A DNA stretch of 64,000 nt, taken from Mobula hypostoma (taxonomy: Eukaryota). The stretch is taken from NCBI RefSeq assembly GCF_963921235.1, contig NC_086097.1, forward strand, positions 94,862,001 through 94,926,000, written 5' to 3'. The notes beneath the pieces were generated by a model. It saw only the letters and a program-made list of their open reading frames with translations, was not told the DNA's origin and did no database searches. This document shows positions 3,756-3,971 of the stretch, one piece after another. How positions within the stretch are numbered: position 1 is the stretch's first letter; the number at the start of each line of letters is the position of its first letter. The position numbers were made by a program, and so were the translations under genes.

Positions 3756-3971
3756 ACAACAGGAATTCTGCAGATGCTGGAAATTCAAGCAACACACATC
3801 AAAGTTGCTGGTGAACGCAGCAGGCCAGGCAGCATCTGTAGGAAGAGGTGCAGTCGACGTTTCAGGCCGAGACCCTTCGTCAGGACGTCAGTGTCCTGAC
3901 GAAGGGTCTCGGCCTGAAACGTCGACTGCAACTCTTCCTACAGATGCTGCCTGGCCTGCTGCGTTCACCAG
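3756..3971. mobile_element. Penelope-like-derived fold-back (palindromic) insertion
   Basis: 79-bp inverted arms 3808-3886 and 3893-3971 (1 mismatch); flanking direct repeat CCAGAGACAGTGAA at 3743-3756 and 3968-3981. Confidence 0.85.
3893..3928 (+). ncRNA. Minimal type-I hammerhead ribozyme motif (Penelope-type); mirror copy on - strand at 3851-3886
   Basis: GUC-CUGACGA-AGG(GUCUCGG)CCU-GAAA-CG-UC/GAC: intact CUGANGA and GAAA cores, stem II, palindromic ACGU in place of stem III, and short stem I. Confidence 0.7.

What the first reader, a model, noticed from the sequence alone, without database searches (positions are those of the whole stretch)
3851..3928. Back-to-back minimal hammerhead ribozymes at the pivot of a mobile palindrome
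Seen: both strands carry stemI-CUGACGA-stemII-GAAA-CG-UC-stemI' (+ at 3893-3928, - at 3851-3886), separated by 6 nt; a cleaner copy with a 5-bp stem I is at 37235-37272. Established: Penelope-like retroelements carry minimal type-I hammerheads whose helix III is replaced by a short palindrome (here ACGU) and which are thought to cleave as dimers. Inference: this repeat family, with many copies in this window, is a hammerhead-bearing PLE derivative that could scatter self-cleaving RNA motifs genome-wide. In the fold-back form a read-through transcript would instead make a ~79-bp near-perfect hairpin that masks both ribozymes and could be an ADAR or Dicer substrate.
Basis: partly seen in the sequence, partly recalled or inferred. 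Interest (0 to 1): 0.75.

Follow-up and report, generated by a model that had tools for sequence, protein, structure and literature searches.

The report
Head-to-head Penelope stump masking two hammerheads
The two back-to-back hammerhead ribozyme motifs are real, but they are the mirror-image halves of one tiny, truncated insertion of a very abundant Penelope-like jumping gene, an already described arrangement that likely arises anew at each insertion and would fold into a hairpin that silences both ribozymes.

Summary
Observation confirmed: minimal type-I hammerhead motifs at 3853-3886(-) and 3893-3926(+), 6 nt apart, and a better copy at 37235-37272 (4 motifs in the window against 0.005 expected). 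They are the two arms (78/79 identical) of one ~215-bp head-to-head insertion, 3757-3971, with a 14-bp target-site duplication. Arms belong to a very high-copy Penelope-like element (PLE) end, linked elsewhere in the window to a GIY-YIG-type endonuclease C-terminus; nearest proteins come from rays and sharks. The palindrome is not the mobile unit: 6 head-to-head pairs in the window have 6 different pivots, and contig depth falls about 10,000-fold at this pivot. Both motifs here are clipped (3-bp stem I, G10.1-U11.1), lie on opposite strands so cannot dimerise in cis, and are predicted masked by 66 kcal/mol. 10 of 14 arms have broken cores; covariation does not exceed shuffles. PLE min-hammerheads, opposite-strand pairs, inverted pLTRs and tails are published. 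This scan noted the same kind of thing before, in this genome (81 notes) and in other genomes. Remaining leads: pivots cluster at the ribozyme, and a weak family-wide A-to-G excess at two sites in RNA-type runs.

The parts
3743..3756 (+). Left copy of the 14-bp target-site duplication CCAGAGACAGTGAA; its last 2 nt also match the end of the element's tail
   Evidence: Exact 14-nt match to 3968-3981; 0 of 300 random window pairs reach it; tail end compared with the 61511 arm
3757..3807 (-). One-sided 3' extension of the long arm; its outer ~30-35 nt (3755-3789) correspond to the PLE 'tail'
   Evidence: Absent from the right arm; family contigs end in two clusters, 3755-3761 and 3784-3789 (table 7)
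3808..3852 (-). Pseudo-LTR sequence 3' of the ribozyme, long (left) arm
   Evidence: 94-95% identical to copies at 36308-36433 and 61511-61639
3853..3886 (-). Minimal type-I hammerhead motif, clipped to a 3-bp stem I, G10.1-U11.1; predicted cut after the C at 3856
   Evidence: Descriptor scan, core tally
3887..3892 (.). Pivot / hairpin loop GTCAGT, specific to this insertion; partly resembles the element's upstream TCAGT
   Evidence: One match in the window with up to 3 mismatches; summed contig depth 284 at 3889 against 2.68 million at 3869 in run X2
3893..3926 (+). Minimal type-I hammerhead motif, clipped to a 3-bp stem I, G10.1-U11.1; predicted cut after C3923
3927..3971 (+). Pseudo-LTR sequence 3' of the ribozyme, short (right) arm; ends in CCAG shared with the target duplication
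   Evidence: 78 of 79 nt identical to the left arm over 3893-3971
3968..3981 (+). Right copy of the target-site duplication
   Evidence: run X2 contig 23 runs 3948-4113 with 0 differences
36286..37297 (.). Longer head-to-head insertion of the same family (15-bp TSD, pivot near 36876, arms unequal by ~82 nt) that links the hammerhead to the endonuclease C-terminus; holds the 37235-37272 motif and a G12A-broken motif at 36398-36435(-)
61412..61653 (.). Head-to-head insertion of the same family with the pivot inside the ribozyme core (61515), 12-bp exact TSD (14 with one mismatch)

Best explanation
The feature is a 5'-truncated, head-to-head insertion stump of a high-copy Penelope-like retrotransposon, likely built during one integration event and predicted to be inert as a ribozyme. 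Shown: two pLTR arms in head-to-head orientation, a tail on one side, a 14-bp target duplication, and pivots that differ from insertion to insertion. Inferred mechanism: the element's RT-endonuclease nicks both target strands about 14 nt apart; each 3' end primes cDNA synthesis on element RNA (one at the tail end, the other further in, helped by the 4-nt CCAG match); both cDNAs stop early, here at the 5' edge of the hammerhead's stem I; their ends are joined with 6 nt of filler. The ribozyme is simply the part of the pLTR that lies about 130 nt from where reverse transcription starts. In the parent element it would work as a dimer or with protein help; in this stump any read-through RNA makes the antisense arm first and would zip into a 79-bp hairpin.
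For: TSDs: 14, 15 and 12 nt exact at the three youngest inverted insertions, each 0 of 300 in random pairs. Six head-to-head pairs among 22 arms found at E<0.001 (4 pairs also by self-BLAST; 2 old pairs only by abutting opposite-strand hits) have pivots at stem I edge (3889), stem I edge/stem II (4148), core/stem II (19206), inside the core (61515), ~35 nt upstream (32325) and ~400 nt upstream (36876). In whole-genome contigs depth is 2.68 and 3.28 million at 3869 but 284 and 1,250 at 3889, loose ends at 3886 continue into the element's own upstream sequence, and 324 different joints were reported, 15 shown. Link to PLE protein: 36737-36877 and 9097-9369 match P0003 (E 6e-12 and 9e-36), whose relatives carry weak GIY-YIG hits and are ray and shark proteins. 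Literature: inverted 5'-truncated copy and one-sided 30-40 bp tail (PMC8557442, passages); inverted pLTRs with 8-10 bp TSD (PMC3846280, passages and Discussion); PLE protein cleaves and extends both strands, starts RT at two sites, predicted dimer, ribozyme protein-assisted and dispensable in vitro (PMC11167929, parts 1-2 of 4). The 61425 short arm ends at 3791 on the long-arm scale, next to the second cluster of family ends. The arms of the 36303 insertion differ in clustered fashion (4 adjacent pairs among 22 differences, P=0.022), as two different templates would give. Masking: forcing the hammerhead fold costs 65.9 kcal/mol.
Against: Three of six pairs are nearly symmetric (loops of about 1, 2-4 and 6 nt) at three different positions, which fold-back of one cDNA explains more simply than two independent stops. 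The arms here are 78/79 identical. No RT domain was confirmed by Pfam in the window and the GIY-YIG hits of relatives are below Pfam's cut-off. TSDs at the three old pairs are not above chance. No empty site was seen; organism B appears to carry the insertion too. Contig depth is not a copy number, by the tool's own note.
Confidence: 0.85

Rival explanations
1. Same origin, different step: one cDNA is made from the tail to the stem I edge, its 3' end folds back and copies itself (self-priming), and the copied strand is then joined to the other target strand through the CCAG match. This is a variant inside the best explanation, not an alternative to PLE origin.
For: Near-symmetric pivots in 3 of 6 pairs; 78/79 arm identity; a GACGTC palindrome at 3884-3889; self-priming was proposed for head-to-head PLE junctions (PMC3846280 Discussion).
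Against: The 36303 pair is unequal by ~82 nt with clustered differences between arms; family 3' ends fall in two clusters like the two RT start sites shown in vitro.
Confidence: 0.4
2. The palindrome is a self-propagating non-autonomous unit (MITE-like or retrozyme-like) with one ribozyme per strand, each cutting the transcript of its own strand.
For: Both motifs have intact cores; the unit has a TSD; summed depth at the pivot (284 in X2, 1,250 in X5) is above single-copy flanks (about 5-13), so some other loci have a similar junction.
Against: One copy of this pivot in the window; 6 of 6 pairs differ in pivot; pivot depth is about 1/10,000 of arm depth; stem I is clipped to 3 bp; each strand's transcript carries the perfect antisense of its ribozyme upstream; no head-to-tail tandem units as in retrozymes.
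Confidence: 0.05
3. The stump has been co-opted by the host as a source of double-stranded RNA (ADAR, Dicer or hairpin small-RNA substrate), for example near the ZFP36L-type gene 19 kb away.
For: Arms remain 78/79 identical although the insertion seems shared with organism B, whose flank differs at 13 of 380 positions. A-to-G on the element's sense strand at 3837 and 3839 is 3- to 6-fold commoner in two RNA-type runs than in DNA runs, whereas the 12 other-type variants show ratios of 0.17-1.46.
Against: One difference in 79 nt is compatible with neutral divergence of that age (about 2-3 expected, my estimate). The A-to-G signal is family-wide, from contigs of other individuals, in runs whose RNA status is a guess; the third T>C site (3849) shows only 1.2- and 2.0-fold; no A>G site reaches 5% on the antisense arm, which a fold-back duplex should also show.
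Confidence: 0.07
4. Assembly artefact: a chimeric fold-back read created the palindrome.
For: Palindromes in long-read assemblies can be artefacts (recalled); no listed contig spans the whole stretch.
Against: A 14-bp TSD, unequal arm ends and one arm mismatch; independent contigs enter the left end (X2 contig 17, X5 contig 25) and the right end (X2 contig 23) with unique flank.
Confidence: 0.02

Closest known systems
Minimal type-I hammerheads (min-HHR) in the pLTRs of metazoan Penelope-like elements (Cervera and De la Pena 2014, PMC4209133; parts 1-2 of 4 and passages read)
   Same: Core CUGANGA/GAAA/UH, extra nucleotide between 9 and 10.1, palindromic 15.2-16.2, no helix III, position in the pLTR, thousands of dispersed truncated copies; the paper also notes dual min-HHRs on opposite strands 100-700 bp apart.
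   Different: Here the two motifs are only 6 nt apart, stem I is clipped to 3 bp and 10.1-11.1 is G-U. The main text does not mention sharks (0 hits for 'shark' or 'Callorhinchus'); its supplements were not read and may list them.
Insertion units of endonuclease-positive PLEs with an adjacent inverted 5'-truncated copy and one-sided tail (Craig et al. 2021, PMC8557442, passages; Arkhipova et al. 2013, PMC3846280, passages and Discussion)
   Same: Head-to-head inverted copy at the 5' end, palindromic junction, tail on one side only, short TSD.
   Different: Stump of only ~215 bp with no coding sequence; TSD 12-15 bp here against 8-10 bp in the rotifer examples; pivot falls at the ribozyme edge.
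Poseidon element of Anolis (PAc) in vitro system (Frangieh et al. 2024, PMC11167929, parts 1-2 of 4)
   Same: pLTR hammerhead, two 3' ends about one tail length apart, both target strands cut and extended, which would give head-to-head arms.
   Different: The sections read do not explain inverted junctions; the window's element has a Cys-rich RT-EN linker (8913-9110 against P0003) that may point to the Neptune clade rather than Poseidon (inferred, not tested by phylogeny).
Non-LTR retrozymes (Li et al. 2026 preprint, 10.64898/2026.07.22.740005, part 1 of 5 and passages)
   Same: Non-coding, PLE-derived, type-I hammerhead; reported in one chondrichthyan species.
   Different: Retrozymes are head-to-tail tandems with a ribozyme in each unit, able to dimerise; this unit is head-to-head and self-masking.

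Membership tests
PLE minimal hammerhead | Core C3-U4-G5-A6-N7-G8-A9, G12-A13-A14-A15.1, U16.1-H17 | tested here: met
   Intact in both arms and at 37235 and 39234; 4 of 14 arms aligned
PLE minimal hammerhead | Extra nucleotide between 9 and 10.1; palindromic 15.2-16.2 with no helix III | tested here: met
   A3903; ACGU at 3919-3922
PLE minimal hammerhead | Highly conserved G10.1-C11.1 pair and helix I of 4-5 bp | tested here: not met
   Both arms of the finding have G-U and 3 bp; the 37235-37272 copy meets both. The arms are filed as clipped copies, the family motif as a member.
PLE minimal hammerhead | Covariation of stems across copies | tested here: inconclusive
   14 arms: 76% cells paired, 161 of 500 shuffles as high; covariation score 169 of 500; far above slid controls (22-44%). 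Few, decayed copies.
PLE minimal hammerhead | Self-cleavage as dimer or with protein help | not testable with these tools
   Needs a bench assay; one search used contigs, which cannot show RNA ends
EN+ Penelope-like element insertion | C-terminal GIY-YIG endonuclease upstream of the pLTR | tested here: met
   36737-36877 and 9097-9369 match P0003/P0005/P0006; 4 of 11 relatives have GIY-YIG hits at E 0.0009-0.008, below Pfam's cut-off; Atlas cluster with GIY-YIG in 24% of members at score 0.93
EN+ Penelope-like element insertion | Telomerase-like RT in the same ORF | tested here: inconclusive
   Only decayed fragments near 56273-57120; no Pfam hit, weak match to P0003
EN+ Penelope-like element insertion | Inverted 5'-truncated copy adjacent at the 5' end | tested here: met
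   6 pairs among 22 arms
EN+ Penelope-like element insertion | 30-40 bp tail on one side; short TSD | tested here: met
   Family ends cluster at 3755-3761 and 3784-3789; TSD 14, 15, 12 nt in the 3 young pairs, not significant in the 3 old ones
Self-propagating palindromic unit (MITE-like) | Same centre shared by dispersed copies | tested here: not met
Non-LTR retrozyme | Two or more head-to-tail units each with a type-I hammerhead | tested here: not met
   The two motifs are on opposite strands; no same-strand neighbour within 30 kb among complete motifs

The most novel reading that the evidence does not exclude
The hammerhead's stem I edge is a built-in stop or fold point for this element's reverse transcriptase, so each round of transposition sows near-perfect ~80-bp self-masking hairpins across ray genomes; these act as the lineage's main inverted-repeat double-stranded RNA source and are A-to-I edited, much as inverted Alu pairs are in primates, and the pivot map would read out how PLEs build their inverted arms.
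Probability: 0.2. Interest if true: 0.55.

Novelty: new member of a known kind. Interest (0 to 1): 0.2.

Why it matters
As a ribozyme finding it adds little: PLE minimal hammerheads and inverted PLE arms are published, and this pair is predicted to be silent. Its use is as a footprint of PLE integration, whose inverted-arm step is still undefined (PMC8557442): a very high-copy family with young TSD-flanked stumps lets one count pivots, arm ends and arm-to-arm differences genome-wide and so choose between two-primer and fold-back models. If the A-to-G hint holds, such stumps would also be a large endogenous source of edited double-stranded RNA in cartilaginous fish.

Tried and rejected
No whole genome is held for this window, so copy number and pivot spectrum could not be counted directly. 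Rfam: nothing at gathering threshold in 64 kb; the 14 weak matches at 3700-4050 are led by microRNA hairpin models below their thresholds and reflect the palindrome only. Two metagenome scans with family motifs found 0 loci. Two word-seeded protein searches with decayed frames found nothing; Pfam found nothing in the window's PLE frames; the full HMMER search did find relatives. No RNA holder was listed for the stretch, and the two RNA-type runs had no cover of most unique flank, 3462-3740 and 3989-4050; neither blank is evidence on expression. No places where many molecules begin or end were reported, but contigs cannot show them. Isolated motifs do not fold better than shuffles (z 0.03-0.53 for the arms and the 37235 copy) and their MFE mispairs the core. 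MFE co-folding of two copies did not give the dimer hammerhead; this is weak, since energy models handle such junctions poorly. The sense pLTR alone is not unusually structured (z -1.15). Lunse et al. 2016 on dimer cleavage is not held; I saw only its citation and summary in a review (PMC6765202, passages). Literature searches for twin priming in PLEs, self-priming/head-to-head, Penelope in cartilaginous genomes and Penelope with A-to-I editing listed no paper, by title or abstract start, on this family or on editing of PLE hairpins; the library lacks most subscription papers and I read no supplements. Rejected: dimerisation of the two back-to-back motifs (opposite strands); gene conversion to explain arm identity (1 difference is within expectation).

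Full report
Observation. On the plus strand: GUC (3893-3895), CUGACGA, an extra A, stem II GGGU-CUCG-GCCU, GAAA-CG-UC and GAC (3924-3926); the minus-strand mirror runs 3886-3853, and 6 nt lie between. A descriptor written for minimal type-I hammerheads found 4 complete motifs in 64 kb (3893+, 3853-, 37235+, 39234-) against a mean of 0.005 in 200 dinucleotide shuffles. Two corrections: stem I is 3 bp in both arms, and position 11.1 is U, where the 37235 copy has a 5-bp stem I and the usual G10.1-C11.1 pair. Rfam does not detect any of them.

Anatomy. The motifs are the inner ends of two arms that pair over 79 nt with one mismatch (3808-3886 with 3893-3971). The left arm goes on for about 50 nt more, to 3757. 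The whole is flanked by an exact 14-nt direct repeat, 3743-3756 and 3968-3981, which none of 300 random window pairs matched; 4 nt of it overlap the end of the short arm and 2 nt the end of the long arm. This is one insertion of about 215 bp.

Family. A profile made from 7 window copies found 25 hits at E<=1, 22 at E<0.001 (seeds included), and none in the reversed window. The longer insertion at 36286-37297 joins the same end, through about 370 nt of pyrimidine-rich UTR, to a reading frame ending GSLQPDGMNIDFSNFR. That frame and the one at 9097-9369 match P0003 at E 6e-12 and 9e-36. P0003 came from a full HMMER search with the 9127-9369 frame (14 hits); 4 of the 11 hits scanned have GIY-YIG matches, all below Pfam's cut-off, and the 6 looked up are from rays, a skate and a shark. 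The Atlas gave a cluster with GIY-YIG in 24% of members. The RT was not confirmed in the window. I read the family as an endonuclease-positive Penelope-like element of a cartilaginous fish; the Cys-rich linker may indicate Neptune (inferred from the clade description in PMC8557442).

Is the palindrome the mobile unit? No. The 22 arms include 6 head-to-head pairs (4 also found by self-BLAST; the two oldest rest on abutting opposite-strand hits and pairwise alignment). Their pivots lie at the stem I edge (3889), at stem I on one arm and stem II on the other (4148), in core/stem II (19206), inside the core (61515), about 35 nt upstream (32325) and about 400 nt upstream (36876). The three youngest have TSDs of 14, 15 and 12 nt; the three old ones have none above chance. 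This pivot occurs once in the window. In contigs of two DNA-type runs, summed depth is 2.68 and 3.28 million at 3869, 284 and 1,250 at 3889, and about 5-13 in the flanks; loose ends at 3886 mostly continue as TAACTGA, the element's own upstream sequence (agreement only 0.38-0.44), and 324 different joints were reported, 15 of them shown. The tool warns that depth is no copy number, but a 10,000-fold drop is not subtle. The pivot depth is still above single copy, so some other loci turn at or near the stem I edge. Four of 6 pivots in the window lie in or at the ribozyme; six cases cannot establish a hotspot, but two earlier notes of this scan on the same genome report one (e1-9807999, e1-9958889; unchecked AI notes).

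Would the ribozymes work here? Likely not. Minimal PLE hammerheads showed no activity as monomers and low activity as dimers (PMC4209133), and the Anolis one cleaved only with its protein and was dispensable for insertion in vitro (PMC11167929). The two motifs here are on opposite strands, so one RNA carries one ribozyme preceded by its perfect antisense. Forcing helices I and II in the read-through RNA costs 65.9 kcal/mol against the hairpin, and partial transcripts ending at 3905, 3915 and 3928 are already zipped. Across the window 4 of 14 core-spanning arms keep the core and 8 carry G12A (the 8 arms that begin inside or after the core, or are too decayed, were left out). Pairing is 76% of cells, well above slid controls, but no measure exceeds the column shuffles (70-376 of 500). 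That fits selection on parent elements followed by neutral decay of inserted copies; it does not test the parents.

Mechanism. I commit to a by-product of integration (0.85). Inverted 5'-truncated copies, one-sided tails and short TSDs are standard for PLEs (PMC8557442, PMC3846280), and opposite-strand pairs of min-hammerheads were noted in 2014. For the step that makes the second arm I slightly prefer two primers: the Anolis protein cuts and extends both strands and starts at two sites one tail apart; family 3' ends here cluster at 3755-3761 and 3784-3789, the 61425 short arm ends at 3791 on that scale, and the 36303 arms are unequal and differ in clusters (P=0.022). Fold-back of a single cDNA is nearly as good, because 3 of 6 pairs are almost symmetric and the arms here are 78/79 identical. 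Neither step is shown.

The double-stranded RNA idea. The locus itself could not be shown transcribed. At family level, A-to-G on the element's sense strand rises from 2.0% to 11.9% and 10.0% at 3839, and from 0.8% and 1.3% to 5.1% and 3.8% at 3837, between DNA-type and RNA-type runs of organisms A and B, while 12 variants of other types change 0.17- to 1.46-fold and the third T>C site 1.2- to 2.0-fold (15 rows table 3 with high depth, computed; the low-depth pivot, 3929-3931 and flank rows were left out). The common allele puts 3839 in a UAG triplet, the context ADARs prefer (recalled). Against: these are contigs, from other individuals, in runs only guessed to be RNA, and no A>G site reaches 5% on the antisense arm. 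It is a lead only. Organism B seems to share the insertion: its contig runs 3400-3778 with 10 substitutions and 3 gaps, 22 nt into the arm, short of the tool's 31-nt rule.

Known and new. The motif class, its host element and the inverted architecture are all in print; I read parts or passages of five papers and one preprint, no supplements, and Lunse et al. 2016 was not available. Searches listed nothing on this ray family's pivots or on editing of PLE hairpins. The scan itself has 81 notes on Penelope hammerheads in this genome and two near-identical findings in other genomes. Verdict: real, correctly recognised, a new instance of a known kind; interest 0.2. The most novel reading not excluded is that the ribozyme edge fixes where RT stops or folds and so seeds edited hairpins genome-wide (probability 0.2, interest 0.55).

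Noticed in passing
window 23353-24378 (+): Intact 341-aa frame with Tis11B N-terminus and two CCCH fingers, a ZFP36L1/L2-type gene exon; the only clear host gene seen, 19 kb from the finding.
   Followed up: partly
window 61412-61653: Head-to-head stump whose pivot lies inside the ribozyme core with a 1-nt loop; its 7 arm differences are all transitions, and its short arm ends at the second family end site.
   Followed up: yes
window 36286-37297: Arms unequal by ~82 nt, joined at a 4-5 nt match (TTCC/TTCCA); 22 differences in 402 columns with clustered transversions, suggesting two templates or later conversion.
   Followed up: partly
window 3837 and 3839 (family-wide): A-to-G on the element's sense strand is 3- to 6-fold commoner in two RNA-type runs than in DNA runs; possible A-to-I editing.
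   Followed up: partly
window 39234-39270 (-): A divergent older family copy with intact core, different stems (GCU/AGU, longer stem II) and ACAU instead of ACGU at 15.1-16.1.
   Followed up: no
window 8723-9700 (+) and 55753-57110 (-): Older, longer PLE fragments: the first keeps the Cys-rich linker and endonuclease frames, the second RT-like fragments with the endonuclease region apparently deleted.
   Followed up: partly
window 4059-4208: A second, old head-to-head PLE pair only 80 nt right of the finding.
   Followed up: partly
window 34231-35592, 46133-47840, 49651-50544, 61986-62648: LINE reverse-transcriptase, endonuclease and ORF1-like frames (CR1/L2-type and L1-type by eye, partly).
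   Followed up: no
window 44979-45414 and 9700-10800: A ~54-nt tandem repeat giving repeated frames, and a long GA/CT-rich tract with an inverted partner near 11120-11330.
   Followed up: no
P0008 cluster: Gene models of RECQL5 isoforms in a stingray include a PLE endonuclease-derived stretch, either exonisation or an annotation artefact.
   Followed up: no
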